A stretch of 64,000 nt of DNA from NCBI GenBank assembly GCA_000004695.1, contig CM000151.3, positions 2,688,001 to 2,752,000 of the forward strand. Reading direction: 5' to 3'. Of this stretch, positions 29,924 through 62,962 are shown in pieces. The notes beneath the pieces were generated by a model. The model worked only from the letters and a program-made list of their open reading frames with translations, searched no databases and was not told the origin of the DNA. Source of the DNA: Dictyostelium discoideum. Its lineage: Eukaryota. Both the position numbers and the translations under genes were made by a program. Each line of letters starts with the position of its first letter. Within the stretch, counting starts at the first letter, position 1.

Positions 29924-30099
29924 TTTTTTCCAAAATTATTTTAATAAAATAAAATTAAAAAAAAAAAAAAAAAAAAAAAAAGTTTATTAATCTTTTTTTT
30001 TTTTTTTTTTATTTTATCGAAGATTTTTTTTTTTTTTTTTGTCAAAAAATCTTAATAAAAATTAATCAGCAAATTTAAAAAAGAAAAAAATTGGTCTGA

Positions 30100-33057: not shown

Positions 33058-33910
33058 TATTTTAATAGTTTTTATAAAAATATATTTTTATTATTAAAAT
33101 TTTCAATAATATTGGATTATATAAAAAATGTAAATATAAGTTTTTTTTTTTTTTTTTTTTATAATTTAAAATTGATAACTCTTCATATAATATTTACATT
33201 TAATAAAAAAAAAAATTTAAAAAATAAAAATTTTACGACGTCATTTAATTGTTTTGAGATATCTTTAGACTTTTTAATAATTAAAATATTATTTAATTTC
33301 ATTCTAATTAAGCCTATAGATATTACTTTTTTGAAATTATTTTTAAAAAAGGTATTTTTATGTACTTTAAAAAAGTAAATTGTATTTTTAATTATTAATA
33401 ATCAAAATGAAAAAATGAAAATATATTGTTTTTTTTTTAAATATTAATTGATTTCATTTATGTCTGTCCCTTAATGGTGAAATTATTACCCCCTTTCTAT
33501 GTAGGTAAATCATTTTTAATCTTTTTTTTTTTATTTTGTTTTTTTTTTACCTTTTCAAGTACTTGAATTTTATATTATTATCTTTTTTTTTTTTTTTTTT
33601 AATTTTTAAAAAATTAATAATAATTCTTTTAATTAAAAATTAAAATATAAAAAAACACATGGGGGAGGGGGTAAAAACCACAATGGGTAATTTATATATA
33701 CATTGGGTTGAATTTTATATTAACTTATTTCTTATTTTTTTAATTTTTTAATTTAACACTATTCTAATCCTAATTAAAAAAAAATGTTTTTAATAATTTT
33801 TCCATATTAGAGGTTAATATTTTACTTTTTTAATTTTTGGTAATTTTATTTAATATTAAATTTGAAAATTTTTAAATTTTTTAGTAAAAACAAACTTTCA
33901 AAAGATACTC

Positions 33911-36024: not shown

Positions 36025-36204
36025 TTTTTTATTAAATTAAACGATATTAATAAAATAAAATAATAATAAAAAAAAAAATAATGGTACATAAAAAAAAAAA
36101 AGTTTAAAACAATTAACAAATTGGGTATGGGATTTATAACCTTTTTTTACATATATTTGTAATAATTAATATTATCCTATTGGTTCAAAAACATTGAAAA
36201 AAAA

Positions 36205-36300
36205 AAACTTTAATACGGACATTCATAAATTAATGCATCTTGATCTATTTTTAATGGATTTTTCATATGAATATCTAAAACATTATAACATGTATTTAAT
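36205..36300 (-). pseudogene. Short fragment of the 5' part of ACSS3-like exon 2
   Basis: The sequence 'acggacattcataaattaatgcatcttgatctatttttaatggatttttcatatgaatatctaaaacattataacatgtatttaa' matches the reverse complement of the ..CYNVLDIH.KNP..DQDALIYECP.. region of the paralogs, with no flanking ORF. Confidence 0.6.
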
Positions 36301-36526
36301 TTTTTAAAAAATTTTATTATGTATCTTATCTTTATTTAAATTTTGAACCAATAAGATAAAATAAAAAAATAAAGATGAATTACAAATTGGGGTGTATAAG
36401 ATATAATTTAAATATTTTTATTTTATTATTACTAGCTATTTTTATTTTTATTATTATTATTATTATTATTATTTATTATTATTATTATTATTTATTATTA
36501 TTATTATTATTAATTTAATTACCACC

Positions 36527-36890: not shown

Positions 36891-36944
36891 ATTATTTTAT
36901 TATTATTATTATTATTTTATTTTTATTATTATTATTATTATTAC

Positions 36945-37006
<62 letters not shown>

Positions 37007-37010
<4 letters not shown>

Positions 37011-39011: not shown

Positions 39012-39454
39012 TTTTATAAGGTAATATATGTATTATTAAATAAAATGATATTAAAATAAAACAAATAATAGTTTTATATAAAAAAAGTTTAAAAAAAATA
39101 ATAACTAAATAATAAAATAAAATAAATAATAAAAGTAAAAAAAAAAAAGGTGGAAAACAATTATTAAATCTGGTGTAGATTTATAACCACTATTAACTGC
39201 GATATACAATATTAATTAATTTATTTTTAATTTTTTTTTATTATTATTATCTTTATTTAAATTTTGAACCAATCAGATAAAATAAAAAATAAATTAAAAA
39301 ATAAGGATAATTACAAATTGTGGGGGTGTATAACATATAATTTAAATTTTTTTATTTTATTATTACTAACTATTATTATTATTTATTATTATTATTTATT
39401 ATTATTATTATTTATTATTATTATTATTTATTATTATTATTATTATTAATTTAA

Positions 39455-40390
<936 letters not shown>

Positions 40391-45230: not shown

Positions 45231-45818
45231 ATTCCTCTTATTTTAATTTTAAATAATTTATCCAAACTTCCAAAAAAAATTAAAAAAAAAAAATAAAAAA
45301 GCTTTTCATCCGAATCTTGTTTGCACTAATAATATTACAAAAGGGTTAATGACCAATCTGGTTATTATTTTTATTTTCACTTTTTTTTTTATTATTTTTT
45401 TTTAAAAAGCCATTTTTTTATTTGAAAATAAAAACACCTCAAATTCCGAAAAGACAAAAAACAGGTCATTAAAAAAAAAAAAAAAAAACTGATTTTTTTT
45501 TTTTTTAAAGACGAAAATATATTATGTTGGTAATAGTTATTAAAAAAAAAGTTTCAACATCAAAAAACACCTAAATTTTTATTTTTGGTGCCCAAATAAA
45601 AAATAACTAAAAAAAAAAAAAAAAATTGTTTGAAGTTTATTATTTTATTAATAAATTAAAGAACAATGTTAAAAATATATAAATAATATAATAAATTCAT
45701 TTGTTTTTTTTGTTTTTTTTTCTTTAAACCTTTTATTAAAAAAAAAAAAAAAAAAAAAAAAATGAATTCAAATATATCATCATTTAATTGAATAATACAA
45801 TAATAATAATAAAAAAAA

Positions 45819-48217
45819 ATGAATAGATTAAGTGAACCATTTAATTATGACAAAGACTTCAGCTTTTCAAATAACCAACCAATAGAATTTTGGGATGAAG
45901 TTGCTAAGAATTTCGTTCATTGGTTTGTATTCAGTAACAATTTTATAATTTTTAAAAGTATTTTTAAATAAAATAATTTTTTAACACATACAATTTAAAA
46001 TTTTAAATAATAATAAAAAAAAAGGGATAGAATGTATGATAAAGTTTATAGTGGTGATGAAATTTATCCAGATTGGTTTAAAGGTGGTGAATTAAATACA
46101 TGTTATAACGTTTTAGATATTCATATTAAAAATCCTGCAAAAAGAGATCAAGATGCATTAATTTATGAATGTCCATTTTTAAAGAAAACAATTAAACTAA
46201 CATACTATCAATTATATGAAAAAGTATGTGAATTTTCAAGAGCACTTTTAAATTTAAATGTTTCAAAAAATGATAACGTTATAATTTATATGGCAAATAC
46301 AGTTGAAGCACCAATTGCAATGTTATCATGTGCTCGTATTGGTGCAACTTATTGTACATTATTTGATGGTTATTCAGTTAAAAGTTTAATAGATCGAATT
46401 GAAACAATTACACCAAAATTGATTATCACAACAAATTATGGTATTTCAAATGATGAAATTATTACATTTACACCAAATTTAAAAGAAGCAATTGAACAAT
46501 CAAATTTTAAACCAAATCATATAATTATACATAATAGAGATGATGGTGATTATAATGCAAATTTAACTTTAAAAACAATAATTGAAACAATACCAACGAT
46601 ACCAAATACATTAAGTTGGTATGATGAAATTAAAAAATTCAAAGAAAATAATCAATCACCATTTTATGATTATATACCAGTAGATTCAAGTCATCCATTA
46701 TATATTCTATATACAAGTGGTACAACTGGTAACGCTAAAGCAGTTGTAAGAAGTAATGGTCCACATTTAGTTGGTGTTAAATATACATGTAGATGTATGT
46801 TTTTAAATGATGAAGTTAATAATAATAATACTAATTCAGATTTAATTAAATTCTTTTCACATTCAAGTATTGGTTGGGTAACATTTCATGGTTTTCTATA
46901 TTCATTATTATCAACAGGGAATATTTTTATAATGTTTGAAGGTGGAATTTGTGAATTAAATCAAATCAAGTATCAACTTTGGAAAGTTATTGAAAAACAT
47001 AAGGTAAACAAATTTTTTATTGGTCCTAAATCAATTAGACTTTTAATTAAAGATGACCCAAATGCAGAGTTTATATTATCAAATTATAATTTATCAAGTT
47101 TAAATACAATTTTAGTTGGTGCTGATGTAGTTGAAAAATCAGTTGCAAATTATATTGAAAACAAATTAAAAAAATCTGCTTCAAATATATATGGTCAAAC
47201 TGAAACTGGTAATATATATTTATTTGATTTTAAAAAATCAAACAGATCCAATGTTAGCAGTAATAGTAACAGTAGTGGTAGTGGTAGTGGTAGTGGTAGT
47301 GGTAGTGGTAGTGGTAGTGGTAGTGGTAGTGGTAGTGGTTGTGGTAGTGGTAGTGGTAGTGGTAGTGGTAGTGGTAGTGGTAGTGGTAGTAGTAGTGGTA
47401 GAGGTAATATAATGGTAATTGGTCAGCCAACTCCTTCTTTAAAATCATTCATACTCTCTGAAGAAGAAGAAGAGGAAGTTTGTTATAATAATAGTGATGT
47501 TGGTGGTGGTAATAGTGTTTGTAGTGGTAGTAGTAGTGGTAGTGATAGTGGTACGAGTAGTGGTAAAAAATCATTAAATAAAAATGAAATTGGAGAGTTG
47601 GTATTTAAATTACCTTTACCACCTGGATTTGCATTAACCTTTTATAAAAATAATGAACAATTTAAAAAATTATTCAAAACAAATTTATTGAATATGGAAA
47701 AAGGTTATTATTATTTTTCAGGTGATTTGGCATTTAAAGACCAAGATAATAATTTTACAATCGTTTCAAGATCAGATGATCAAATAAAAATTAAATCAAA
47801 TAAAGTACAATTAAATACAATTGAAATTTCAGTTTTAAAACATCCATTGGTTTTAGAATGTTGTTGTATTGGTATTAAAGATGTAGAATTCTTGACTGTA
47901 CCAATTGGTATTCTAATATTAAATAATCAAAATAATCAAAATAATCAAAATAATCAAAATAATCAAAATAATAATCCAATTGAATTAAAAGAATTAGAAA
48001 AAGAAATAAATATGATAATTTCAAATGATATTGATAATCATCAATATTAAGAAGAATAATAGTTGTTAAGAAAATACCAAAGACAAAAAGTGGAAAAAAT
48101 ACAAGATCAATATTATCAAAATTATTAAATGATATCAATTTTGTTTTGCCAAGTAATATTAATGACTATGAATTATTTTTAGAAATTAAAGAATCTTTTA
48201 TAAATAAAACAGTTTGA
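45819..48217 (+). CDS. ACSS3-like paralog E, divergent, with low-complexity insertions and an apparent -1 frameshift near the C-terminus (possible pseudogene); exons 45819..45922 and about 46024..48050, with a frameshifted tail to 48217
   Basis: Exon 1 encodes MNRLSEPFNYDKDFSFSNNQPIEFWDEVAKNFVHW and ends at the donor GTTTGT. Exon 2 retains YTSGTTGNAKAVV and GQTETG, but carries insertions: (SG)n of about 40 residues, an E-rich/Cys stretch, and an (NQN)n run. The motif region is altered (YYFSGDLAFKD, KIKSNKV). After ..NDIDN the conserved C-terminus (IIVVKKIPKTKSGKNTRSILSKLLND..) continues only in the +2 frame. The displayed ATG sits at 46031, while the ORF track starts at 46032. Confidence 0.6.
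47275..47400 (+). repeat. (AGTGGT)n hexanucleotide coding repeat, about 20 copies, encoding (SG)n
   Basis: Direct reading 'agtggtagtggtagtggt...'. It causes the V-rich and HY-rich artefact ORFs 47191..47412 and 47254..47448 in other frames. Confidence 0.9.
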
Positions 48218-48455
48218 ATTTTTGGGTATGTGTTTGTTTTTTTTTTTCAATTAAAATTATTATTAAATTATTATTTCTATTTCTGTATTTTTCAGTGTAT
48301 GTGGGTGTCAGTGGTTATTATTCAGACTTTTTTTATATTTGTTTTGTAAATAGTAATAATAATAATAATTATTGGATCAATTAATGATACTATAAAATTT
48401 ATTAGTTATTTTTAATTTTATTTTATTAATATCACATATCATTTTTTTTATTATT

Positions 48456-48487
<32 letters not shown>

Positions 48488-48551
48488 CTTTCTTCTTCCA
48501 TATTCAATAGTTTTTTTTTTTTTTATTATTATTAATACTTATATTAAAAGA

Positions 48552-50602
48552 ATGTATAGACTAAGCGAACCATTTGATTATTTAAATGATAAAACTTATG
48601 CAAATAATGAGCCAGAAGCTTTTTGGGATGAAGTTGCAAAGAAATTAATTAAATGGTAATTATTTGTTTATTTTTTTTTATATATTAATAATTACTAATT
48701 AAAATAACAATTTTTTTTTTTAAAATAAAATAAAAAAGGGATAAAATGTATGATAAAGTTTATAGTGGTGATGAAATGTATCCAGATTGGTTTAAAGGTG
48801 GTGAATTAAATACATGTTATAATGTTTTAGATAGACAAGTTCAAAATCCATTAAAAAGAGATCAAGATGCTTTAATTTATGAATGTCCATATTTAAAGAA
48901 AACTGTTAAATTAACATATTATCAATTATATGAAAAAGTATGTGAATTTTCAAGAGTACTTTTAAATTTAAATATTTCAAAAAATGATAATGTTTTAATT
49001 TATATGGCAAATACATTGGAGCCTTTAATTGCAATGTTATCATGTGCTCGTATTGGTGCAACTCATTGCACAATATTCGATGGTTATTCGGTTAAAAGTT
49101 TAATAGATAGAATTGAAACAATTACACCAAAATTAATAATTACAACAAACTATGGTATATTAAATGATGAAATCATTACATTTACACCAAATTTAAAAGA
49201 TGCAATTGAACAATCAACTTTTAAACCAAGTAATGTAATTACTTTATTTAGAAATGATATTACAAGCGAATCAGATTTAAAGAAAGTAAAAGATATACCA
49301 ACGATACCAAATACATTAAGTTGGTATGATGAAATTAAAAAATTCAAGGAAAATAATCAATCACCATTTTATGAATATGTTCCAGTAGAATCAAGTCATC
49401 CATTATACATAATATATACAAGTGGTACAACTGGAAATTCTAAAGCAGTTGTAAGAAGTAATGGTTCACATATGGTTTGTTTGAATTACTTTAACCGATA
49501 TATTTCAGAAAATAATCAAAGTACAACATTATTGACAACTTCAAGTGTTGGATGGGTATCATTTCATGGTTTCCTATATGGTATGTTGTCATTTGGATCT
49601 ACATTTGTAATGTATGAAGGTGGTATTATAAAAAATAAACATATTGAAGTTGACCTTTGGAATACCATTGAAAAACATAAAGTAACACATGCATTATCAT
49701 TGGCAAGCGCTATTAGATACCTTATTAAAACTGATCCTGAAGGAACAATCCTTCGTTCAAAGTATGATTTATCAAATTTAAAAGAAATATGGATTGGTGG
49801 TGAACCAATTGAAGAATCAATTTCAGAATACATTGAACAAAAGTTAAAAATAAAATCAACAAGGGGATATGGTCAAACTGAAATTGGTATAACTTATTTA
49901 TATTGTTTTGGTCATATTAATATCCCATACTACGCAACTGGTTTACCATCAATTTTCATTAGACCATCAATATTTTCAGACGATGGTAAAGAATTAGGTG
50001 TTAACGAAATTGGTGAAATCGCATTCAAATTACCAATGCCACCAAGTTTTGCAACTACATTTTATAAAAATGATGAAAAGTTTAAACAATTATTTTCAAA
50101 ATTTCCAGGTTACTACAATCCTGGTGATTTAGGTTTTAAAGATGAAAATGGATTTTATACAATTGTTTCAAGATCAGATGATCAAATTAAAATCAGTGGT
50201 AATAAAGTTCAATTAAATACAATTGAAACATCAATACTAAAACATCCATCAGTTTTAGAATGTTGTTCAATTGGTATTAACGATCCAACTTGTTATAGTG
50301 TACCAATAGCCTTATTAGTTTTAAAACAACAACAACAACAGCAACAAGATCAGTCAACTCGACAAATAGATTTAAATAAATTACACTCTGAAATTAATAA
50401 TATCATTACACAAGATATTGCATCATTAGCAGTCTTAAGAAAAATTGTAATTGTTAATCAATTACCAAAAACAAAAACTGGTAAAATTCCAAGACCAATT
50501 ATATCAAAGTTTTTAAATGATTCAAATTTTCTATTACCCGATAACATCAGTAATGTTGAAATATTTTATGAAATCAAAGAATTATATACGAAAATTAATT
50601 AG
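48552..50602 (+). CDS. ACSS3/PrpE-like acyl-CoA synthetase paralog F; exons 48552..48655 and 48739..50602
   Basis: Exon 1 encodes MYRLSEPFDYLNDKTYANNEPEAFWDEVAKKLIKW followed by GTAATT. Exon 2 is a 618-aa intact ORF with all AMP-binding motifs and a short Q-rich insertion (KQQQQQQQDQS). Confidence 0.85.
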
Positions 50603-50730
50603 TCTTTATAAAAAACAAGTTTTTTTTTTTTAAAACCATTTATTGTTTTTTTTTTTTTATTTGTGTTTAAAATTTTTTTATTTTTTTAATTTTTTTTAAA
50701 ATCTTGTTTTTTTTATTATTAAACAGCTCA

Positions 50731-50774
50731 AAAGTGTTTGTAGTTATTTGTTTTTTTTTTTCAACACCCCAATT
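50731..50774 (+). promoter_or_regulatory. Conserved upstream element of paralog G: 'AAAGTGTTTGTAGTTATTTGTTTTTT..CAACACCCCAATT' (about 150 bp 5' of the ATG)
   Basis: Near-identical blocks lie at 53323..53360 upstream of H and at 55284..55328 upstream of I. A degenerate version sits at about 48210..48245 upstream of F. Each has a GT-rich half followed by ACACCCC(C)A. Confidence 0.35.
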
Positions 50775-50883
50775 TTTTTTTTTTTTTTTTTTTTTTTTTC
50801 AAATCTTGTTTTATTTTATTTATTATTTTTAATTGTTTTTTATTACAATTATATAAATTATTCATTTAATTTTAACCTAAAAT

Positions 50884-52904
50884 ATGTTTAAACTTAGTAA
50901 TCCTTTTAATTATTTAAATGATTTTAATTATGCAAATTCTTATCCTGAGGCTTTTTGGGATGAAGTTGCAAAAAAGAATGTTTTTTGGTAAGATAATCCA
51001 TTTTTCTACAAAAAAAAAAATTAAAAACAAAAACTAATATATTTAAAAGGGATAAAATGTATGATAAAGTTTATAGTGGTGATGAAATGTATCCAGATTG
51101 GTTTAAAGGTGGTGAATTAAATACATGTTATAATGTTTTAGATATTCAAGTTCAAAATCCATTAAAAAGAGATCAAGACGCTTTAATTTATGAATGTCCA
51201 TATTTAAAGAAAACTATAAAATTAACATATTATCAATTATATGAAAAAGTATGTGAATTTTCAAGAGTACTTTTAAATTTAAATATTTCAAAAAATGATA
51301 ATGTTTTAATTTATATGGCAAATACTTTAGAACCATTAATTGCAATGTTATCATGTGCTCGTATTGGTGCAACTCATTGTGTATTATTCGATGGTTATTC
51401 AGTTAAAAGTTTAATAGATAGAATTGAAACAATTACACCAAAATTAATAATTACAACAAACTATGGTATTTTTAATGATGAAATTATTACATTTACACCA
51501 AATTTAAAAGATGCAATTGAATTATCAACTTTTAAACCAAGTAATGTAATTACTTTATTTAGAAATGATATTACAAGCGAATCAGATTTAAAGAAAGTAA
51601 AAGATATACCAACGATACCAAATACATTAAGTTGGTATGATGAAATTAAAAAATTCAAGGAAAATAATCAATCACCATTTTATGAATATGTTCCAGTAGA
51701 ATCAAGTCATCCACTATATATTATTTATTCAAGTGGTACAACTGGTAATGCTAAAGCAGTTGTAAGAAGTAATGGTCCAAATTTAGTTTGTATGAATTAC
51801 TTTGACAGATATATTTCAGAAAAATATGAATGTACAACATTATTGACAACTTCAAGTGTCGGATGGGTATCATTTCATGGTTTCCTATATGGTATGTTGT
51901 CATTTGGATCTACATTTGTAATGTATGAAGGTGGTATTATTAAAAACAAACATATTGAAGTTGACTTTTGGAATACCATTGAAAAACATAAAGCGACACA
52001 TACATTATCATTGGCAAACACTATTAGATACTTTATTAAAACTGATCCTGAAGGAACAATTATACGTTCAAAGTATGATTTATCAAATTTAAAAGAAATA
52101 TGGGTCGGAGGTGAAGTAATTGAAGAATCAATCCCAGAATACATTGAAAAAAAGTTAAAAATAAAACCAACAAGGGGATATGGTCAAACTGAAATTGGTA
52201 TAGCTTATTTATATTGTTTTGATCATATTAATATCCCATACTACGCAACTGGTTTACCATCAATTTTCATTAGACCATCAATATTTTCAGACGATGGTAA
52301 AGAATTAGGTGTTAACGAAATTGGTGAAATCGCATTTAAATTACCAATGCCACCAAGTTTTGCAACTACATTATATAAAAATGATGAAAAGTTTAAACAA
52401 TTATTTTCAAAATTTCCAGGTTACTACAATCCTGGTGATTTAGGTTTTAAAGATGAAAATGGATTCTATACAATTGTTTCAAGATCAGATGATCAAATTA
52501 AAATCAGTGGTAATAAAGTTCAATTAAATACAATTGAAACATCAATACTAAAACATCCATTAGTTTTAGAATGTTGTTCAATTGGTATTAACGATCCAAC
52601 TTGTTATAGTGTACCAATAGCCTTATTGGTTTTAAAACAACTACAACAACAAGATCAATCAATTCAACAAATTGATTTAAATAAATTACAAAATGAAATA
52701 AATTATATAATTAAACAAGATATTGAATCATTAGCGGTCTTAAGAAAAATTGTAATCGTTAATCAATTACCAAAAACAAAAACTGGTAAAATTCCAAGAC
52801 CAATTATATCAAAGTTTTTAAATGACTCGAATTTTCAATTACCTGATAATGTCAATAACGTTGAAATATTTTATGAAATCAAAGAATTATATATGAAAAA
52901 TTAA
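50884..52904 (+). CDS. ACSS3/PrpE-like acyl-CoA synthetase paralog G; exons 50884..50987 and 51050..52904
   Basis: Exon 1 encodes MFKLSNPFNYLNDFNYANSYPEAFWDEVAKKNVFW followed by GTAAGA. Exon 2 is a 615-aa intact ORF, about 90% identical to F. Confidence 0.85.
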
Positions 52905-53322
52905 TCTTTATAAAAAATTGACAGTTTTTTTTTTAATCATTTATTGTCATTTTTTTTTGTTTTTAAAATTATTTTTAAAAATTCACAAAAAATAATAACA
53001 TTAGCAAATAAAATAATTATTAAAATTTTATTTATATATCATATTTTGTTTTGTCTTTAAATTTAAATATTCATATATTTTAATTTTTTACTCTACAATA
53101 ACCAATGTTTTTAGTCATTTTTTTTTTATAATAATTTTCTATAATTTTTTAAAGATATTTTTCCTTTTTTTATTTAATATTGCAGTATTAGTAATCTAAG
53201 AAAAATATTTGGAAAGAAAAAAATTGAGATCCAAATGTAAAAATTCCTTTTAATCTGTTTTATCATTAAGAAAAGTTTTATATTTTATATAATAAAAATA
53301 TTTCTTAATTACAAAACAAATT

Positions 53323-53360
53323 AAAAGTGTTTGTGGTAATTTGTTTTTTACACCCCAATT
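53323..53360 (+). promoter_or_regulatory. Conserved upstream element of H: 'AAAAGTGTTTGTGGTAATTTGTTTTTTACACCCCAATTAC'
   Basis: Same motif as at 50731 and 55284, about 165 bp 5' of the ATG. Confidence 0.35.
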
Positions 53361-53486
53361 ACTTTTTTTTTTGGTTATTTTTATTTTTTTTATTTTATTA
53401 TAATTATAATTTTTAATTTTTTTTTTTAATACAATTATATAAATTATTAATATTTAATTTTAAATTTAATTTTTTTTTTAAATTAA

Positions 53487-55040
53487 TAAAATAAGAATGT
53501 TTAAACTTAGTGATCCTTTTAATAATTTAAATGATTTCAATTATGCAAATTCTTTTCCTGAGGCTTTTTGGGATGAAGTTGCAAAAAAGAATGTTTTTTG
53601 GTAAGATAATACATTTTTTTCTTTATATAAAAAATATAAACAAAAACTAATATTTTTAAAAGGGATAAAATGTATGATAAAGTTTATAGTGGTGATGAAA
53701 TGTATCCAGATTGGTTTAAAGGGTGAATTAAATACATGTTATAATTTATATGAAACAAGTCTAAAAATAAAGATAAACAAGTTCAAAATCCATTAAAAAG
53801 AGATCAAGATGCATTAATTTATGAATGTCCATATTTAAAGAAAACTGTAAAATTAACATATCATCAATTATATGAAAAAGTATGTGAATTTTCAAGAGTA
53901 CTTTTAAATTTAAATATTTCAAAAAATGATAATGTTTTAATATATATGGCAAATACGGTTGAAGCACCAATTGCAATTTTATCATGTACTCATAATGGTG
54001 CAACTCATTGTGTATTATTCGATGGTTATTCAGTTAAAAGTTTAATAGATAGAATTGAAACAATTACACCAAAATTAATAATTACAACAAACTATGGTAT
54101 TTTTAATGATGGAATCATTAATTTCATCACAAATTTAAAAGAATCTATTGAATTATCAACTTTTAAACCAAGTAATGTAATTACTTTATTTAGAAATGAT
54201 ATTACAAGCGAATCAGATTTAAAGAAAGTAAAAGATATACCAACGATACCAAATACATTAAGTTGGTATGATGAAAATAAAAAACTTAAAGAAAATAATC
54301 AATCACCATTTTATGAATATGTACCAGTAGAATCAAGTCATCCACTATATATTATTTATTCAAGTGGTACAACTGGTAATGCTAAAGCAGTTGTAAGAAG
54401 TAATGGTCCAAATTTAGTTTGTATGAATTACTTTAACAGATATATTTCAGAAAAATATGAAAATATAAAATTATTTACATTTTCAAATGTCGGATGGATA
54501 TCATTTCATGGTTCCCTATAAGGCTTGTTGTCATCTGGATCTACATTTATAATGTATGAAGGTGGTATTATAAAAAACAAATATATTGAAGTTGACTTTT
54601 GGAATACCATTGAAAAACATAAAGTGACACATGCATTGTCATTGGCAAGCACTATTAGATACTTTATTAAAACTGATCCTGAAGGAACAATTATACGTTC
54701 AAAGTATGGTTTATCAAATTTAAAAGAATTTATGGTTGGAGGTGAAGTAATTGAAGAATCAATCCCAGAATACATTGAAAAAAAGTTTTAAAGCAAAAAC
54801 AAGATCAATCAACTCAATTGATTTAAATAAATTACAATCTGAAATTAATAATATCATTACACAAGATATTGAATCGTTAGCAGTCTTGAGAAAAATTGTA
54901 GTTGTTAATCAATTACCAAAAACCAAAGCTGGTAAAACTCCAAGACCAAAGTTTTTAATGATTCAAATTTTCAATTTCCAGATAATATCATTGACATTGA
55001 AATATTTTATGAAATTAAAGAATTATATATGAAAAGTTAA
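53487..55040 (+). pseudogene. ACSS3-like paralog H, a pseudogene with frameshifts, an insertion, internal stops and a roughly 0.6-kb internal deletion
   Basis: Exon 1 is intact (MFKLSDPFNNLNDFNYANSFPEAFWDEVAKKNVFW, GTAAGA). In exon 2, 'aaagggtgaatt' replaces 'aaaggtggtgaatt' (a 2-nt deletion), and there is an insertion at about 53745..53775. Stops fall after HGSL and after EYIEKKF. The segment between the codon-360 equivalent and the C-terminal codon-480 equivalent is missing. The catalytic-site region is mutated (CAR to CTH). Confidence 0.8.
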
Positions 55041-55083
55041 AAATAACTATTTTTAATCATTTATTACTCATTTTTTATTTATT

Positions 55084-55123
<40 letters not shown>

Positions 55124-55283
55124 AAATTTTGAATCGAATTAATTTACAAAATATATGTTAAATGATATAAAATAGATTCAAATATTGTGAATAAAATTGG
55201 AAAATTTTAAAATGATTATAATAATTGGTCAATTAATGAAAATTGTATTTAATAAAAAACTGTTAAATAATAAAACAGTTTAA

Positions 55284-55328
55284 AGAAGTGTTTGTGGTTA
55301 TTTTTTGTTTTTTAACACCCCCATTTAT
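55284..55328 (+). promoter_or_regulatory. Conserved upstream element of I: 'AGAAGTGTTTGTGGTTATTTTTTGTTTTTTAACACCCCCATTT'
   Basis: Same motif, about 215 bp 5' of the ATG. Confidence 0.35.
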
Positions 55329-55504
55329 TTTTATTTATTTTTTATCTTTTATTTTTTAAAATATATATCATTATTTAAATCTTTTATTTTTTATATATAA
55401 TTAAATTTTTTAATTTTAATTTATATTATATTTAATTTTAAAATTAATTTTTAAAATTTTTTTTTTTTTTTTTTTATAATTTATTTAATTAATTAAAAAT
55501 TAAT

Positions 55505-57522
55505 ATGTATAAGCTTAGTGATCCTTTTAATTATGTAAATGACAGTAATTATGCAAATTCTTATCCTGAGGATTTTTGGGATGAAGTGGCAAAAAAGCAT
55601 GTTTTTTGGTAAATATATCTTTTTTTTTTTTCTTTATAAAAAAAGAGATTTTAATATTAAAACAAAAACTAATATTTTTAAAATAAAGGGATAAAATGTA
55701 TGATAAAGTTTATAGTGGTGATGAAATTTATCCAGATTGGTTTAAAGGTGGTGAATTAAATACATGTTATAATTTATTAGACATTCATACAAAAAATCCT
55801 ACTAAAAGAGATCAAGATGCAATAATTTATGAATGTCCATTTTTAAAGAAAACTGAGAAATTAACATATTATCAATTATATGAAAAAGTATGTGAATTTT
55901 CAAGAGTACTTTTAAATTTAAATGTTTCAAAAAATGATGTTGTTTTAATTTATATGTCAAATACATTAGAACCATTAATTGCAATGTTATCATGTGCTCG
56001 TATTGGCGCAACTCATTGTACAATAATCGATGGTTATTCAGTTAAAAGTTTAATAGATAGAATCGAAACAATTACACCAGAATTAATAATTACAACAAAC
56101 TATGGTATATCAAATGATGAAATCATTACATTTACACCAAATTTAAAAGAAGCAATTGAATTATCAACTTTTAAACCAAGTAATGTAATAACTTTATTTA
56201 GAAATGAAGTTTTGGATGAAACAAATTTAAAAAAAGTAAATGATATACCAACGATACCAAATACATTAAGTTGGTATGATGAAATTAAAAAACTTAAAGA
56301 AAATAATCAATCACCATTTTATGAATATGTACCAGTAGAATCAAGTCATTCATTATATATACTATATACAAGTGGTACAACTGGTAATGCTAAAGCTGTT
56401 GTTAGAAGTAATGGTCCACATTTGGTTAGTATTAGATATTATAGATTCCGTAAAGAATCAGATATACCTCAAATTGTATTTTCATATTCAAATATTGGGT
56501 GGGTATCATTTCACGGTTTCTTTTATGGTTTACTATCTGTAGGGAATACATTTGTAATGTATGAAGGTGGTATTATAAATAACAAACATATTGAAGATGA
56601 TTTATGGAAAACAATTGTAAAACATAAAGTAACACATACATTTCCATCCCCATCTGTATTTAGATACCTTATTAAAACTGATCCTGAAGGAAAAATCATC
56701 AGTTCAAAGTATGATTTATCAAATTTAGAAGAAATATGGTGTGGTAGTGAAGTAATTGAAGAATCAATTCCAGAATACATTGAACAAAAGTTAAAAATAA
56801 AATGTTTAAGAGTATTTGGTCAAAGTGAAATTGGCATAACTTCATTTATTAGTGTTCATGCTTTAAATATGCCTTATAAAGCCACTGGCATACCATCAAT
56901 TTTCATAAAACCATCAATACTTTCAGAAGAAGGTAAAGTTTTGAATTCAAATGAAATTGGTTTTGTTGCAATTAAACTACCAATGCCACCAGGTTTTGCA
57001 ACTACATATTATAAAAATGATGAAAAGTTTAAACAATTATTTTCTAAATTCCCAGGTTATTATAATACCGGTGATTTAGGTTATAAAGATCAAAGAGGAT
57101 TTTATACAATTGTTTCGAGATCAGATGATCAAATTAAAATCGGTTATAAAAAAGTTCAATTAAATACAATTGAAACGTCAATTTTAAAACACCCATCAGT
57201 TTTAGAATGTTGTTCGATTGGTATTTATGATCCAGTTATTCGTAGTGTACCAATTGGTGTATTAGTATTAAAAGAAAATCAATCAATTGATTTAATTAAA
57301 TTACAAAATGAAATTAATAATATCATTACACAAGATATTGAATCATGTGCAGTCTTAAGAAAAATTTTAATTGTTAACCAATTACCAAAAACAAAAGTTG
57401 GTAAAATTCCAAGACTAATTTTGTCAAATTTATTAAATGATTCAAATTATCAACTACCCCATAATGTCAGTGACACTGAAATATTTTATGAAATCAAAGA
57501 ATTATATATGAAAAATTTATAG
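55505..57522 (+). CDS. ACSS3/PrpE-like acyl-CoA synthetase paralog I; exons 55505..55608 and 55689..57522
   Basis: Exon 1 encodes MYKLSDPFNYVNDSNYANSYPEDFWDEVAKKHVFW followed by GTAAAT. Exon 2 is a 608-aa intact ORF. It has substitutions in otherwise conserved positions (KIGYKKVQ in place of KISGNKVQ; SHSLYIL). Confidence 0.8.
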
Positions 57523-58224
57523 TTAGTAAACTTAATTTAAAAATTTGTTTTTATTTTTTGAAAAAAAAATAATAAAAAAAAAAAAATTTGAATTATTTAT
57601 TTTTTAAATTTAATAAATAAAAAAATAAAAAAATTTAATTATATTTTTTTTTTTTTTATTGGTTTGATAAAAAATAGTGTTTTACCTTTTGATTACATTA
57701 GAAGTTTTGTTTTAAAAAAAAGGTTAAAAATTCAAAAAAAATAATAAGGACGGATATAAATTATTGTTTATTTCCTTTAATGCATAAACTGTGATTAATC
57801 AATATTAAATAAAAAAAATAATAATAATATAAATATTGTTTGTAATGATTAAAATTTTTTTTTTTTTTAATAAGTTTCAAATGTTGAAAAATCTTTAAAA
57901 AAAAAATTAATTTTAATCGTAACAAGCACTTTAAAAAAATATTTACTTATTATTAGCATTTTTAACAAACAACATAAAAATAAAAATTTTAATTAAAATA
58001 AATTAAATTAAATTAAAAAACACACTGGGGTGTGTAGAATTTCTAAAATATTTTAGTGGAAATAATTTAATTTATTTTAATTAAAATTTTTTATTTTTAA
58101 TTATATAAAAATATTATCTAACAAACAATAAGAATTTTTTTTTTTTTTTTTTTTTTTCATTAGAGTTTGTGCACTATTATATTTAATTTTTCATTTTCAT
58201 TTTATTAAATAATTAATAACAAAT

Positions 58225-60240
58225 ATGTATAAACTTAGTGATCCTTTTGATTATTTAAATGATAATAGTTATTCAAAGTCTAATCCAGAAGCTTTTTGGG
58301 ATGAGGTTGCTAAAAAGAATGTTTTTTGGTAAATATATATCTTTTTTTTTCTTTGTTAAAAAAGAGATATTAAAATTAAAACAAAAACTAAGATTTTTAA
58401 AAATAAAAGGGATAAAATGTATGATAAAGTTTATAGTGGCGATGAAATATATCCAGATTGGTTTAAAGGTGGTGAATTAAATACATGTTATAATTTATTA
58501 GATATTCATATTAAAAATCCTGCTAAAAGAGATCAAGATGCATTAATTTATGAATGTCCATTTTTAAAGAAAACAATTAAATTAACATATTATCAATTAT
58601 ATGAAAAAGTATGTGAATTTTCAAGAGTACTTTTAAATTTAAATGTTTCAAAAAATGATAATGTTTTAATATTTATGGCAAATACATTAGAACCATTGAT
58701 TGCAATGTTATCATGTGCTCGTATTGGTGCAACTCAATGTACATTATTCGATGGTTCTTCGGTTAAAAGTTTAATAGATAGAATCGAAACAATTACACCA
58801 AAATTAATAATTACAACAAATTATGGTATTTTAAATGACGAAATCATTACATTTACACCAAATTTAAAAGAAGCAATTGAATTATCAACTTTTAAACCAA
58901 GTAATGTAATAACTTTATTTAGAAATGAAGTTTTGGATGAAACAAAATTAAAAAAAGTTCAAACTATTCCAACTATTCCAAATACATTAAGTTGGTATGA
59001 TGAAATTAAAAAATTAAAAGAAAATAATCAATCACCATTTTATGAATATGTACCAGTAGAATCAAGTCATCCATTATATATACTTTATACAAGTGGCACA
59101 ACTGGTAATACCAAAGCTGTTGTAAGAAGTAATGGTCCGCATATGGTTGGTATTAAATACTATACATTCCGTAAAGAATCAGATATACCTCAAATTGTAT
59201 TTTCACATACAAATATTGGGTGGGTATCATTTCATGGTTTCTTTTATGGTTTATTATCTGGAGGAAACACCTTGGTAATGTATGAAGGTGGTATTATAAA
59301 AAACAAACATATGGAAGATGATTTATGGATAGCTATTGTAAAACATAAAGTAACACATACGTTTCCATCCCCATCTGTATTTAGATACCTTATTAAAACT
59401 GATCCTGAAGGAACAATTGTACGTTCTAAGTATGATTTATCAAATTTAAAAGAAATATGGTGTGGTGGTGAAGTAATTGAAGAATCAATTCCAGAATATA
59501 TTGAACAAAAGTTAAAAATAAAATGTTTAAGAGTATTTGGTCAAAGTGAAATTGGCGTAACTTCATTTATTAGTGTCCATGCTTTAAATATTCCTTATAG
59601 AGCCACTGGCGTACCATCAATTTATATTAGACCATCAATACTTTCAGAAGAAGGTGAAGTTTTGAATTCAAATGAAATTGGTTTAGTTGCATTTAAACTA
59701 CCAATGCCTCCCAGTTTTACAATTACATTTTATAAAAATGATGAAAAGTTTAAACAACTATTTACAAGATTTCCAGGTTACTACGATTCAGGTGATTTAG
59801 GTTATAAAGATCAAAGAGGATTTTATACAATTGTTTCAAGATCAGATGATCAAATTAAGATAGGTTTTAATAAAATTCAATTAAATACAATTGACACATC
59901 AATTTTAAAACATCCATCAGTTTTAGAATGTTGTTCTATTGGTATTTTAAGTCCAGATTGCCATACTGCACCGATTGGTATATTGGTATTAAAAGAAAAT
60001 CCATCAATTGATTTAAATAAATTACAAAATGAAATTAATAATATCATCACGCAAGATATTGAATCACTGGCAGTCTTAAAAAAAATAATAGTTATTAACC
60101 AATTACCAAAAACAAAAGTTGGTAAAATTCCAAGACAAATTTTATCAAATTTATTAAATGATCCAAACTATCAATTACCAGACGATGTCAATGACTCTGA
60201 ACTATTTTATAAAATCAAAGAGTTATATATGAAAAATTAA
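58225..60240 (+). CDS. ACSS3/PrpE-like acyl-CoA synthetase paralog J; exons 58225..58328 and 58410..60240
   Basis: Exon 1 encodes MYKLSDPFDYLNDNSYSKSNPEAFWDEVAKKNVFW followed by GTAAAT. Exon 2 is a 607-aa intact ORF (KIGFNKIQ variant; the catalytic LPKTKVGKIPRQ is present). Confidence 0.85.
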
Positions 60241-60300
60241 TTTTAGCAAAGTTTTTGTAAATTGTTTTTGTTCTAAAAAAAAAAAAAAAAAAAAAGAGTA

Positions 60301-60578
60301 ATAATAATTAAAAAAGAAAATAATTTGGATTATTTTTTTTTAATTTAATAAAAGTAGGAGATATAAAAAATAAATAAAAAATATAAAAAAAAAATAAAAA
60401 AATTTAAACTTTTAAATAATATGTTTGAAATTATTTGATTTTTTTTTTTTTTTGACTAAAAATAGTGTTTTACTATGGGACAAAAAGAGTTTTTTTAATC
60501 CACCTCCATCCTTATTGTTTTGTTTAAAGGGGTTTTCTCCCGTTGTAATTTAATTAATTTTAAATTAAATTTAATTTT

Positions 60579-60637
<59 letters not shown>

Positions 60638-61385
60638 TATTTAATTTTACAAAAAGTTTCATTATAATATTTAAAAACCAAAATATAAAAAAAATGTCAC
60701 ACAAATTCCCCACTTAAAATATTATTATAATTTCAAAAATATTTAATTAAAAAAGAAATATATAATAAATAAGAATAAAATAAAAATAATATAATTTGGT
60801 AGTTAAAATGGATTCTAACTTTATCGGTTGAGTTGAAAGAAGTCGCACAAATTTTGTAACTTAAAAAAGAACTAAGGTTTCTATTTCAACCTCTGTTTTT
60901 AATTTTTTCCAAAATATTAAAACCGCAATAAGGCTACGACATCAATAAAATTGAAATATTTGCTTATTGTGAATTCTCACACGGTATATTGTGTAACACA
61001 CACCACCCAGGTTTAACTTCATGAACGCACCGTCAATAGGAATTCACTACAGCAGCGTAGTCAAATTAAATAATAAAATTCACTACGCTACTGTAGTGAA
61101 ATTTTATGGAAAATTCCCTCCAACAATAATAATTAAAAAAGAAAATAATTTGGATTATTTTTTTTTTAATTTAATAAAAGTAGGAGATATAAAAAATATA
61201 TAAAAAATATAAAAAAAAAATAAAAAAATTTAAACTTTTAAATAATATGTTTGAAATTATTTGATTTTTTTTTTTTTGATTTTTTTTTTTTAATTATTTT
61301 TTTTTTTTGACTAAAAATAGTGTTTTACTATGGGACGAAAAGAGTTTTTTTAATCCACCTCCTTCCTTATTATTTTACATATATC
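60301..61385. repeat. About 230-bp direct repeats (60301..60550 and 61124..61385, about 95% identical) flanking a roughly 570-bp core with a 49-nt poly(A) run and a relatively GC-rich island; LTR-like / TE-remnant or local duplication
   Basis: Both copies share 'aaaaagaaaataatttggattatttttt..aatttaataaaagtaggagatataaaaaat..tttgaaattatttgattttttt..gactaaaaatagtgttttactatggga..agagtttttttaatccacctcc'. The core at 60780..61110 is markedly less AT-rich than its surroundings. Confidence 0.6.
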
Positions 61386-61786
61386 CAAATTATTAATTAA
61401 TTATCCATATTTTTTGGATTCTATCCTTTTTTTATTTTTTATCACCACTAAAGAGATATTCCTTAAAAAAAAAAAAAAATAGAGAAAATAAGGAAAAATA
61501 GATAAATTTTTTTAAATTTTTTTTTCTTAAAAAACTGCAAATAAAAATAAAAACTAGACTGTTTGGTTATTAAAATGAATATTTATTTATATTTTTAAGA
61601 TTTTTTTTTATTTTTTTTTTTTCAAAAGATATGAAAAAATTTTGATCAGTAAAAAAAAATTTAACAATTTAATTTTAAAAAAATAATTATAAAATCCCAA
61701 TCTAAGCAATGAGAAAGATATAAAATAATTTGTTTTGTTTTTAATTCAAACAATGAGAAAGATATAAAATGATTCTATTTATATTT

Positions 61787-61824
<38 letters not shown>

Positions 61825-62962
61825 CTTTGGACTCCATTTTATCTAGGCATTTAATTAGACAAAACTTAAATAAAGATAATTACAAAAAATATATGAATGA
61901 AAATTTTTAAAACCCTATAGATATTGGGCAGATATGATAATTTCAAACCTTTTTTTAATTTAAAAAAAAAAAAAAAAAAATATCTTGCACGGGAAAAAAA
62001 AACCTAGTAAAATGTTAAATTATTTAAAAAAAAATAAAAATTCTTATATTTTAATATTTTTTATTTAAATATTTATTGTACACCCATTATTTTTTATCAT
62101 TTTATTATAGTTTTTAATAATCTACAATATATTAAACTATAGTTTAATGTTTTAAAAAATGAGAAATTTCAATAGTATTATTTCCTATTAATTGTTGTAT
62201 ATTATTAAATTATAGTTTTATGTTTTAAAAAATGAGAAATTACAATAGTAAAATTTCTCACAATATGGTAAATCAATAAATTTTTTATAATTTAATGACA
62301 AATTAATATTCAATTCTAATTAAATAATATAAGATTTTTTCAATTTTTAATTTATTAAAATATATTTTTTTTATGGCCAGATTCTTTTTAATTATTTTAT
62401 GATAATTTAATAATAAAGTGTGATTAATTATTAATTAGAAATTGATATTAGTTTATTAAAAATTTTATTATATAAAAATATTATCTAACAAACAATAAGA
62501 ATTTTTTTTTTTTTCATTAGAATTTTTGCACTTTCCCAAAAAATTCTCCATATTATTTTATTTATTTATATTTTTTATTGCGACATTAATTTCTTATTTT
62601 TTTTTATTATGAATTATGGTATATGTAAAAAAAAGTAGTAGGAATAAATTTGGAGATTTTAAATAAACCTTTTTCATGTATCTTTTAAATAATCTTAATT
62701 GAAATTATTAGTGGACATATTTTTTTTATTTAATTTTATTCATTTCATAATTCTAGTTTACTCACTTTTTGTAATTTAGGATATTCATAATATGAATAAT
62801 TTTTAATGACGGGTGCAATAAAATTTATTTTTATGTATAAATTTTTTTTTTCCATGATTTAGTATTATTAATTTTTTTTTTCTTTTTTTTTTTTAATATT
62901 TCATTTGTATTTTATTATATTTAATTTTTCATTTTCATTTTATTAAATAATTAAAAACAAAT

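What the first reader, a model, noticed from the sequence alone, without database searches (positions are those of the whole stretch)
48200..55330. Paralog-specific conserved upstream cis-element: GT-rich half-site plus 'ACACCCC(C)A' about 150-220 bp 5' of the ATG of F, G, H and I. A related CCCACAA-containing block lies upstream of C and D
50731..50774, 53323..53360 and 55284..55328 share AAAGTGTTTGT[AG]GT.ATTTGTTTTTT..ACACCCCAATT within otherwise unalignable poly-A/T intergenic DNA. A weaker version is at about 48210 (gtttgaatttttgggtatgtgtttgtttttt). Upstream of the minus-strand copies D and C, the reverse complement of 39300..39325 and of 36385..36410 reads 'atatgttatacaccccc acaatttg', which contains the same ACACCCC core. 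It also holds a CCCACAA heptamer reminiscent of the Dictyostelium upstream sequence element (DUSE) of ncRNA genes. Conservation of a C-containing motif in about 90% A+T intergenic DNA strongly suggests function, as a shared promoter or enhancer for the family.
Basis: seen in the sequence. Interest (0 to 1): 0.55.

Follow-up and report, generated by a model that had tools for sequence, protein, structure and literature searches.

The report
Conserved promoter box of tandem Dictyostelium genes
A short two-part DNA box (a G/T-rich half, a run of T, then ACACCCC) lies upstream of most copies of a tandemly repeated acetyl-CoA-synthetase-like gene family in Dictyostelium discoideum and its sister species. 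It is most likely an ordinary developmental transcription-factor site of the known G-box/CA-rich type, not a non-coding-RNA promoter element.

Summary
The blocks are real. The window is D. discoideum chromosome 2 and carries 11 tandem acetyl-CoA-synthetase-like paralogs (A-K).

- **Occurrence.** ACACCCC occurs 7 times (1.6 expected), and 6 of these lie upstream of paralogs C, D, G, H, I and J.
- **Enrichment.** An unbiased k-mer screen compared 38 family upstream regions from 6 species or strains with 66 kb of other AT-rich non-coding DNA. CACCCC and GTGGTTA ranked top.
- **Architecture.** The arrangement is GTGGT(T/A)A, then 15-25 T-rich bases, then ACACCCC(C)A.
- **Conservation.** A profile built only from the window's G/H/I blocks finds the orthologous upstream sites in a second D. 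discoideum strain, D. cf. discoideum and D. citrinum, and nothing else at E<=1e-3. Looser versions occur in D. dimigraforme, D. firmibasis and one D. purpureum homolog.
- **Orientation.** Inverted copies exist.
- **3' flanks.** The block is absent from 11 3' flanks of terminal paralogs.
- **Pseudogenes.** It decays next to pseudogenes.
- **Expression.** Published RNA-seq lists show G, I and J induced at 8-14 h, or after high cAMP.

The C-box's reverse complement, GGGGTGT, fits the published GBF response element, although that consensus is loose.

The DUSE/ncRNA idea fails. No site meets the DUSE consensus, and no ncRNA follows.

Verdict: a real, probably functional promoter element and a new instance of a known kind. 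Factor identity is unproven.

The parts
50721..50774 (+). G (DDB_G0273227) upstream composite. It has a G/T-rich half (gtgtttgtagtta), a T-run and a C-box ACACCCCA at 50764-50771, which is -120 from the ATG at 50884.
53313..53360 (+). H (pseudogene) upstream composite. GTGGTAA is at 53333-53339 and ACACCCCA at 53350-53357, which is -147 from the ATG at 53497.
55272..55326 (+). I (DDB_G0273305) upstream composite. GTGGTTA is at 55294-55300 and ACACCCCCA at 55315-55323, which is -190 from the ATG at 55505.
48219..48247 (+). F (DDB_G0273225) upstream, weak G/T-rich element tttttgggtatgtgtttgttt. It starts about 5 nt after the stop codon of the decayed paralog E.
48293..48318 (+). F upstream, stronger element cagtgtatgtgGGTGTcaGTGGTTAt. 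It is an inverted C-box (TGTGGGT/TGGGTGT) lying 8 bp from a GT-box.
58019..58037 (+). J (about DDB_G0273229) upstream, an inverted C-box inside the near-palindrome aacacactGGGGTGTgtag, -198 from the ATG at 58225.
39309..39337 (-). D (DDB_G0273215) distal C-box, tatgttatACACCCCCAcaatttgtaatt, at -318.
39166..39191 (-). D proximal composite with a decayed C half, aGTGGTTAtaaatctacaccagattt, at -179. It aligns with the D. citrinum composite GTGGTTAtatatcttACCCCCCatttt.
36378..36403 (-). C distal C-box, tatcttatACACCCCAatttgtaatt, at -371.
36111..36141 (-). C proximal variant, ggttataaatcccatACCCAatttgttaatt.
33656..33685 (-). B upstream composite at about -630, cattGTGGTTtttACCCCCtCCCCCAtgtg.

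Best explanation
The block is a composite transcription-factor binding element that belongs to the promoter of the downstream acetyl-CoA-synthetase-like paralog. It consists of a G/T-rich half-site on the top strand (core GTGGT[T/A]A, often preceded by GTGTTT), a T-rich spacer of about 8-20 bp, and a second G/T-rich half-site on the bottom strand (top strand reads ACACCCC(C)A).

The most likely mechanism is inferred, not shown. A zinc-finger factor of the G-box/CA-rich-element type binds the two half-sites after aggregation and switches the paralogs on in response to high extracellular cAMP. The best candidate is GBF (gbfA).

**Shown here:**
- the element exists;
- it is strongly enriched upstream of family members;
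- it is conserved across Group-4 species at orthologous positions;
- it tolerates inversion and re-spacing;
- it is not part of the family's 3' ends;
- the genes are induced during development.

**Inferred:**
- that it is bound by a factor;
- that this factor is GBF (my estimate is about 0.35);
- that it drives the induction.
For: 1. **Enrichment in the window.** ACACCCC occurs 7 times against 1.56 expected, and 6 of the 7 are upstream of paralogs.
2. **Unbiased k-mer screen.** 38 family upstream regions were compared with 66 kb of other AT-rich non-coding DNA. CACCCC was found in 15/38 regions with 1 background hit. GTGGTTA was found in 13/38 with 0 background hits. ACACCCC was found in 12/38 with 1 background hit.
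3. **Control promoters.** A C-box is present in 18/38 family promoters against 3/41 neighbouring non-family promoters (Fisher 7.7e-5).
4. **Cross-species conservation.**
   - MAFFT of 11 upstream regions recovers only this block as complex consensus.
   - In a composition-aware Smith-Waterman comparison of D. discoideum with D. citrinum, the best local alignment is the block itself. Scores were 32.6 and 36.2, against nulls of 17.1+/-1.7 and 18.6+/-2.6.
   - An HMM built from the window's three blocks alone was searched against 227 kb from other strains and species. All 7 hits at E<=1e-3 are upstream of family genes.
   - Looser composites occur in D. firmibasis (L010 at -203 and -190) and D. 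dimigraforme. A CACCCACCCCCACA element lies upstream of the closest D. purpureum homolog.
5. **Orientation and spacing are flexible.** Inverted composites occur at the D. citrinum F-orthologs and in D. firmibasis L002, and inverted C-boxes at J and F.
6. **It travels with the downstream family gene.** The upstream neighbour may be a paralog, an HPP-family gene or another gene. The block is absent from 11 of 11 3' flanks of terminal paralogs.
7. **It decays next to dead genes.** The H pseudogene lost the C-box in strain L003 and reads ACATACC in L006. E-orthologs have none.
8. **Expression.** Rosengarten 2015 (PMC4403905, Additional file 7) lists up-regulation on filters as follows: G at 8 and 11 h; I at 11, 12 (rapid) and 14 h; F at 14-16 h; D at 18-20 h; A at 22-24 h. 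J is up at 10-12 h in suspension, after 300 uM cAMP was applied from 6 h.
Against: - There are no binding, reporter or transcription-start data.
- The GBF heptamer consensus is very loose: 63 matches in this window against 38 expected. Fitting it is therefore weak evidence.
- The D. discoideum GT-half (TTGTGGTTA) does not strictly fit that heptamer.
- The upstream sequences are related by descent, so the enrichment p-values are inflated.
- Only about 290 kb of dictyostelid DNA could be used as background. No genome-wide frequency is available.
- Timing differs among box-bearing paralogs, from 8 h to 20 h, so the box alone does not set the timing.
- K, the L003 J-ortholog and three more distant D. 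purpureum paralogs lack it.
- The genes lie in the duplicated part of AX4 chromosome 2 and are close paralogs. RNA-seq assignment among copies may therefore be imperfect.
Confidence: 0.55

Rival explanations
1. The composite is a real promoter element, but it is bound by a factor other than GBF. For example, a dedicated factor could recognise GTGGTTA, and/or an Sp/KLF-like CACCC-box binder could be involved. GBF would play no part.
For: - GTGGTTA is a sharply defined 7-mer: 13/38 family promoters against 0 in 66 kb of background.
- It does not fit the KGKGKGK heptamer.
- That heptamer is unspecific.
- Box-bearing paralogs are induced at different times, from 8 to 24 h.
Against: - In D. citrinum and D. 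firmibasis the GT-half is replaced by generic G/T-rich runs: gtgttggtggtgttgggttg, gtgttaggggtgtagtg and gtgtgggt. This looks like a loosely defined G/T-rich half-site rather than a fixed 7-mer.
- Induction at mound stage and after high cAMP fits GBF-class genes.
Confidence: 0.25
2. The block, or at least its left half, is a 3'-end or termination signal of the upstream same-strand gene. The parts would be a poly(A) signal (AATAAA/ATTAAA), a GU/U-rich downstream element (GUGUUUGUGG plus a U-run), and possibly a C-rich pause site that protects the next promoter from read-through.
For: - AATAAA or ATTAAA lies within about 30 nt 5' of the GT-half in all G/H/I-type blocks inspected.
- Every instance sits downstream of a same-strand gene.
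- Terminal D. citrinum paralogs have AATAAAcagg(t)10gttgtttt about 105 nt after their stop. This resembles the left edge of the block.
- The left edge, AATAAAACAGTTTAA, resembles the last codons plus the stop of paralog E.
Against: - None of the 11 3' flanks of terminal paralogs carries the GT-box plus C-box.
- Inverted copies exist (F-orthologs of D. citrinum, D. firmibasis L002, J). An RNA-level signal could not tolerate inversion.
- In L008 the box keeps its -221 position although the next called upstream gene ends about 950 bp away.
- AATAAA is frequent by chance in about 90% A+T DNA.
- The C/D sites have no GU-rich half.
Confidence: 0.13
3. The block is a non-functional relic. It would be the only compositionally complex piece of the duplicated unit that still aligns, because the surrounding A/T runs mutate quickly by slippage, or because gene conversion homogenises the paralogs.
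For: - G, H and I arose by recent tandem duplication (75-92% protein identity).
- G and H share other intergenic blocks as well.
- A pseudogene (H) still carries the box in the window.
Against: - The box is retained at orthologous positions in D. citrinum, while the rest of the intergenic DNA scores at the shuffle level.
- Presence with different order, orientation and spacing in paralog lineages that no longer align (B, C/D, F, J, D. firmibasis) indicates site turnover under selection.
- The box is lost next to pseudogenes.
Confidence: 0.1
4. The C-rich core is a DUSE, the promoter element of small non-coding RNA genes, and an unannotated ncRNA lies about 60 nt downstream.
For: D's copy contains CCCACAA. 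The minus strand of F's weak element reads ACCCAAAA, which fits [AT]CCCA[AT]AA.
Against: - No motif site fits WCCCAYAA (2 hits in the window, both elsewhere; fewer than the 11.3 expected by chance).
- C, G, H and I fail both forms of the consensus.
- The other [AT]CCCA[AT]AA hits are mostly the antisense of the coding TTTTGGGA in exon 1.
- Rfam gives 0 hits at gathering threshold and 0 at E<=1 in both regions.
- No Class I 8-mer (CCTTACAG/CTTACAGC) lies near any site.
- The downstream DNA is low-complexity.
Confidence: 0.02

Closest known systems
GBF (G-box binding factor, gbfA) response elements: G-boxes and CA-rich elements (CAEs) of post-aggregative Dictyostelium genes such as cprB, cotC, lagC and the sigN family
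   Same: - It is a G/T-rich (C/A-rich on the other strand) island in an AT-rich promoter.
- GGGGTGT fits the quoted consensus (T/G)G(T/G)G(T/G)G(T/G) (PMC2257962).
- A second G/T-rich half lies close by.
- It works in either orientation.
- It is repeated in tandemly duplicated family promoters, as reported for the sigN genes.
- The genes are induced at aggregate/mound stage and after high cAMP.
   Different: - GBF binding and gbfA dependence were not tested.
- The D. discoideum GT-half (GTGGTTA) is more sharply defined than the heptamer and does not strictly fit it.
- The spacer is a long T-run.
- Some box-bearing paralogs are induced only at 18-24 h.
DUSE (Dictyostelium upstream sequence element) of snRNA and Class I RNA genes
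   Same: It is a short C-rich motif (CCC followed by A) in AT-rich upstream DNA. One copy (D) contains CCCACAA.
   Different: - It fails the consensus [AT]CCCA[AT]AA (PMC3188802).
- It is not followed at about 60-63 nt by any ncRNA (PMC7919456).
- It sits 120-370 nt upstream of protein-coding ATGs.
Sp/KLF GT-box and CACCC-box of animal promoters
   Same: The core sequence is the same (CACCC / GGGTG). It is orientation-independent and promoter-proximal, and is bound by zinc-finger proteins. This comparison rests on my own knowledge.
   Different: The lineage is different. No Sp/KLF orthologue was examined here, and the resemblance is at the level of sequence only.
Poly(A) signal plus GU-rich downstream element, and pause-type terminators between closely spaced tandem genes
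   Same: The order AATAAA/ATTAAA, then GUGUUUG, then a U-run is found between same-strand genes.
   Different: It is absent from the 3' flanks of terminal paralogs, and it occurs inverted.

Membership tests
GBF-binding G-box / CAE | A match to the response element (T/G)G(T/G)G(T/G)G(T/G), as quoted in PMC2257962 | tested here: met
   GGGGTGT (reverse complement of ACACCCC) is present at C, D, G, H, I and J. TGTGGGT/TGGGTGT is present at F. This is weak evidence, because the pattern has 63 matches in 64 kb against 38 expected.
GBF-binding G-box / CAE | Two G/T-rich half-sites close together, with variable spacing and orientation. This requirement is recalled from Hjorth 1990 and Schnitzler 1994; those papers are not held in the library. 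| tested here: inconclusive
   A second G/T-rich half lies 15-25 bp 5' of the C-box in G/H/I-type promoters and 8 bp away in F. In D. discoideum it does not fit the strict heptamer. In D. firmibasis (gtgtgggt) and D. citrinum strain 2 (ggggtgt) it does.
GBF-binding G-box / CAE | The target genes are induced after aggregation and by high extracellular cAMP | tested here: met
   The DE lists of PMC4403905 show G up at 8 and 11 h, I up at 11-14 h, and J up at 10-12 h in suspension after 300 uM cAMP from 6 h. D and A come up later, at 18-24 h.
GBF-binding G-box / CAE | Expression is lost in gbfA-null cells | not testable with these tools
   The gbfA- RNA-seq of PMC8327917 exists, but no supplementary files are held.
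GBF-binding G-box / CAE | GBF protein binds the element (EMSA or ChIP) | not testable with these tools
   This is an experimental test.
DUSE | Consensus [AT]CCCA[AT]AA (PMC3188802), or [AT]CCCA[CT]AA as I recalled it | tested here: not met
   None of the C-box sites fits. D has CCCACAA, but it is preceded by C. The only fit is the minus strand of F's weak element (ACCCAAAA at 48227).
DUSE | It lies about 60-63 nt upstream of an ncRNA gene (snRNA, Class I RNA) | tested here: not met
   Rfam gave no hits at gathering threshold on the window, and none at E<=1 on 35900-39500 or 48100-58300. No CCTTACAG/CTTACAGC lies near any site.
Poly(A) / termination signal of the upstream gene | Present downstream of family genes whether or not another paralog follows | tested here: not met
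   0 of 11 3' flanks of terminal paralogs (600 bp each) carry the GT-box plus C-box.
Poly(A) / termination signal of the upstream gene | Strand-specific, that is, only in the sense orientation of the upstream transcript | tested here: not met
   Inverted composites occur at L005 9883(-), L008 9882(-) and L002 15241(-), and inverted C-boxes at J and F.
Poly(A) / termination signal of the upstream gene | An AAUAAA-type hexamer 10-30 nt 5' of a GU/U-rich element | tested here: inconclusive
   It is present in all G/H/I-type blocks inspected. However, such hexamers are common by chance in this composition, and the C/D sites have no GU-rich half.

The most novel reading that the evidence does not exclude
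The GTGGTTA, T-tract, ACACCCC composite is not a generic GBF site. It would instead be the recognition element of an uncharacterised factor or factor pair dedicated to this metabolic gene family. It would be maintained by binding-site turnover through at least four Group-4 species. Because it sits between head-to-tail genes, it would serve both as the upstream gene's terminator or insulator and as the downstream gene's enhancer.
Probability: 0.15. Interest if true: 0.5.

Novelty: new member of a known kind. Interest (0 to 1): 0.3.

Why it matters
If the element is functional, it gives a concrete and easily testable cis-element of about 45 bp. This element would explain why an expanded, uncharacterised family of acetyl/propionyl-CoA-synthetase-like genes is switched on during Dictyostelium multicellular development.

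The tandem array also offers a natural series of variants. These include different spacings, inversions, half-site loss next to pseudogenes, and orthologues in four species. Such a series could help define what a working G-box/CAE-type site needs in vivo, which is still poorly specified: the published consensus matches about once per kb.

It does not open a new kind of biology.

Tried and rejected
1. **DUSE/ncRNA promoter.** Rejected by the consensus scans, Rfam and the Class I 8-mers.
2. **tRNA or other structured RNA in the window.** None found.
3. **3'-end signal of the upstream paralog.** Considered seriously because of the AATAAA plus GU-rich layout. Largely rejected by the 3' flanks of terminal paralogs and by the inverted copies.
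4. **Intron 1 as a neutral baseline for divergence.** Abandoned. The introns carry their own conserved branch-point block, and the D. citrinum introns were not found by my simple rule.
5. **Literature.**
   - The classical GBF/CAE papers (for example PMC359110) are not held.
   - Full-text searches for the gene IDs returned nothing.
   - The supplements of PMC12821622 and PMC5923282 do not list the genes.
   - The supplements of PMC8327917, which has the gbfA- RNA-seq, are not held.
   - PMC8094536 lists the genes with very low expression values, and I with log2FC of about 4 in one comparison. I did not identify the comparison, so I do not use it.
6. **GTGGTAA as a marker in whole-window scans.** It is common inside coding DNA (Gly-Gly-Asn/Lys codons), so only the non-coding comparison is meaningful.

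Full report
**What the window is**

The window is very AT-rich. It is 99.9% identical to a D. discoideum assembly over 45496-64000 (L004).

A tblastn search with one paralog, together with a search for the conserved first exon, maps 11 copies of a two-exon AMP-binding / acetyl-CoA-synthetase-like gene (PF16177, PF00501, PF13193):
- A-D lie on the minus strand, with ATGs at 29923, 33057, 36024 and 39011.
- E-K lie on the plus strand, with ATGs at 45819, 48552, 50884, 53497, 55505, 58225 and 62963.
- E and H are decayed copies.

Exact or near-exact matches name them:

| Paralog | Gene ID |
|---|---|
| A | DDB_G0273211 |
| D | DDB_G0273215 |
| F | DDB_G0273225 / 0273697 |
| G | DDB_G0273227 / 0273695 |
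| I | DDB_G0273305 |
| J | about DDB_G0273229 |

This places the window in the duplicated part of AX4 chromosome 2.

**Checking the observation**

The weaker F version is real too.

ACACCCC occurs 7 times in the window against 1.56 expected, and no shuffle reaches 7. Six of the seven are upstream of C, D, G, H, I and, inverted, J. The seventh is in an unrelated intergenic region.

Corrections:
- C reads acaccccaatttg, so it has no CCCACAA.
- The C/D coordinates need adjusting: D's is about 10-15 nt off, while C's overlaps closely.
- F has no ACACCCC.
- G and H share further intergenic blocks.

**Is it more than shared ancestry?**

I fetched orthologous arrays from other genomes through the protein collection:
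- a divergent D. discoideum strain (L003);
- two 'D. cf. discoideum' strains (L006, L007);
- two D. citrinum strains (L005, L008);
- D. dimigraforme (L001);
- D. firmibasis (L002, L010, L011);
- D. purpureum (L009, L012).

The tests gave these results:
- **K-mer screen.** 38 family upstream regions were compared, with no prior motif, against 66 kb of other AT-rich non-coding DNA from the same loci. The top 6-mer was CACCCC/GGGGTG (15/38 regions, one background hit). The top 7-mer was GTGGTTA/TAACCAC (13/38, none in background).
- **Control promoters.** Neighbouring non-family promoters carry a C-box in 3/41 cases against 18/38 for the family.
- **Multiple alignment.** MAFFT of 11 G/H/I-type upstream regions recovers only one complex consensus, AAAACAnTTTAAAAGTGTTTGTGGTAATTT(T)nAACACCCCnATTT.
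- **Local alignment.** With a scoring scheme that discounts A/T matches, the best local alignment between D. discoideum I or G and the D. citrinum orthologue is this block. Scores were 32.6 and 36.2, against shuffles of 17.1+/-1.7 and 18.6+/-2.6.
- **Profile search.** A profile HMM built only from the window's three blocks was searched against 227 kb from the other genomes. It gave seven hits at E<=1e-3, all at the expected place upstream of family genes. Two of them are in D. citrinum.
- **More distant relatives.** These keep looser versions:
  - D. dimigraforme: ...aatgttg(t)10agCACCCCtttt.
  - D. firmibasis: aagtgtgggtca(t-rich)acaACCCCtttt and aagtggtgaaaataataACCCCtattt.
  - The closest D. 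purpureum homolog: CACCCACCCCCACA at -417.
  
  Three distant D. purpureum paralogs have none.

These statistics are inflated by relatedness, and the background is only about 290 kb. Even so, the signal is consistent across methods.

**Anatomy**

The recurrent arrangement is GTGGT(T/A)A, then 15-25 mostly T bases, then ACACCCC(C)A. It lies 120-240 bp before the ATG in G/H/I-type genes.

Other family branches carry the same two boxes in other arrangements:
- C and D have a distal C-box, plus a proximal GTGGTTA with a decayed C half.
- B has GTGGTTtttACCCCCtCCCCCA at about -630.
- F has an inverted C-box 8 bp from a GT-box.
- The D. citrinum F-orthologues and one D. firmibasis gene have the whole composite inverted.
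- J has an inverted C-box.

The box decays next to dead genes. The H pseudogene keeps only the GT-half in L003 and reads ACATACC in L006. E-orthologues have nothing.

**Promoter element or 3'-end signal?**

Every instance lies downstream of a same-strand gene. The left edge also carries AATAAA or ATTAAA followed by GUGUUUG and a U-run. I therefore tested the idea that the block is the upstream gene's poly(A) or termination signal.

The evidence is against it for the two boxes:
- None of 11 3' flanks of terminal paralogs carries the GT-box plus C-box.
- Inverted copies exist.
- The box follows the downstream family gene whatever the upstream gene is: a paralog, an HPP-family gene or another gene.

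The left edge (AATAAAACAGTTT) may still be, or may once have been, part of an upstream paralog's end. It resembles the last codons and stop of E, and also the AATAAAcagg(t)n found after terminal D. citrinum genes.

**Expression**

Rosengarten et al. 2015 (PMC4403905) list differentially expressed genes for each reference time point, looking back 1-4 h. I read their Additional file 7 and counted columns against the header.

| Paralog | Condition | Up-regulated at |
|---|---|---|
| G | filter | 8 h and 11 h |
| I | filter | 11 h, 12 h (rapid) and 14 h |
| F | filter | 14 h and 16 h |
| D | filter | 18 h (rapid) and 20 h |
| A | filter | 22 h and 24 h |
| J | suspension | 10 h (rapid) and 12 h |

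In suspension, 300 uM cAMP was applied from 6 h onwards. The family is therefore developmentally induced, and G, I and J come on at aggregate-to-mound stage.

**Comparison with known elements**

*GBF.* The response element quoted in the sigN promoter study is (T/G)G(T/G)G(T/G)G(T/G) (PMC2257962). GbfA is described as binding G-rich motifs of cAMP-induced prestalk and prespore genes (PMC6598861). GGGGTGT fits this element, and so do the F and J elements. The timing also fits.

The heptamer is loose, however, with 63 matches in this window. The D. discoideum GT-half does not strictly fit it. GBF binding and gbfA dependence could not be tested here. I therefore file the element as working like a G-box/CAE and treat GBF as the leading candidate, not as established.

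*DUSE.* DUSE is defined as [AT]CCCA[AT]AA about 63 bp upstream of ncRNA genes (PMC3188802; PMC7919456). No C-box site fits it. Only D has CCCACAA. No ncRNA or Class I hallmark follows any site.

**Verdict**

The finding is real and probably functional. It is most economically explained as a bipartite, orientation-tolerant developmental promoter element of a known Dictyostelium type, newly recognised in this gene family and conserved among Group-4 species. It is of modest interest. Its main use is as a compact natural test set for what such sites require.

Noticed in passing
window 53670-55037 (H) and 46032-48202 (E); fragments at 30085-30270 and 36213-36302: H and E are decayed paralogs: their tblastn matches are broken across frames and contain stops. 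Short paralog fragments also sit inside the upstream regions of A and C.
   Followed up: partly
window 39266-39276 (-) and 36345-36354 (-): A CCAAT-box-like sequence (ctGATTGGttc, which is gaaCCAATcag on the other strand) lies about 45 bp 3' of the distal C-box in both C and D. It is conserved in L006, and it matches the animal NF-Y consensus as I recall it.
   Followed up: no
window about 36500-36720 and 39450-39700 (-): An HPP-family membrane protein gene (PF04982 in the L006 annotation) is duplicated together with C and D. The duplication unit on the minus strand is therefore HPP gene plus paralog.
   Followed up: partly
window 19335-19361 (+): An unrelated intergenic region carries TAACCACACCCCCTTCCCCCTGTCCCC, that is, an inverted GT-box abutting a long C-rich run. 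It lies about 220 bp after the ORF at 16086-19118 and about 700 bp before the ORF at 20039. It may be a site of the same class for another gene.
   Followed up: no
window 50844-50862 and 53430-53448 (+): G and H share a TATA-like block, tacaattatataaattatt, about 75 bp 3' of the C-box and about 22-50 bp before the ATG. This would imply a very short 5' UTR. I has ttttatatataattaaat at a similar distance.
   Followed up: no
window 60305-61033 compared with L004 14802-14818: The window has about 730 bp between J and K that the otherwise 99.9%-identical assembly L004 lacks. The 3' flanks of J and K are near-identical, including a long poly(A) run. This suggests a recent duplication of about 3 kb and/or an assembly difference.
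   Followed up: no
window 55609-55688, 50988-51049, 53601-53662 (intron 1): Intron 1 of the paralogs keeps a conserved acaaaaactaatat block near its 3' end, across paralogs and strains. It is probably the branch point.
   Followed up: no
L006 about 3405 and L007 about 3434-3468 (upstream of the CfaA_B_C-domain gene): The neighbouring PF11912 (CfaA_B_C) gene in the cluster has one or two GGGGTG boxes about 200-230 bp upstream in two strains. It was one of only three control promoters with a C-box.
   Followed up: no
window 48200-48215 compared with 55272-55286 and 50721-50733: The left edge of the block (AATAAAACAGTTTAA) closely resembles the last codons plus the stop of paralog E (...AATAAAACAGTTTGA = N K T V stop). 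The unit boundary of the ancestral tandem repeat may therefore have lain just 5' of the GT-half.
   Followed up: partly
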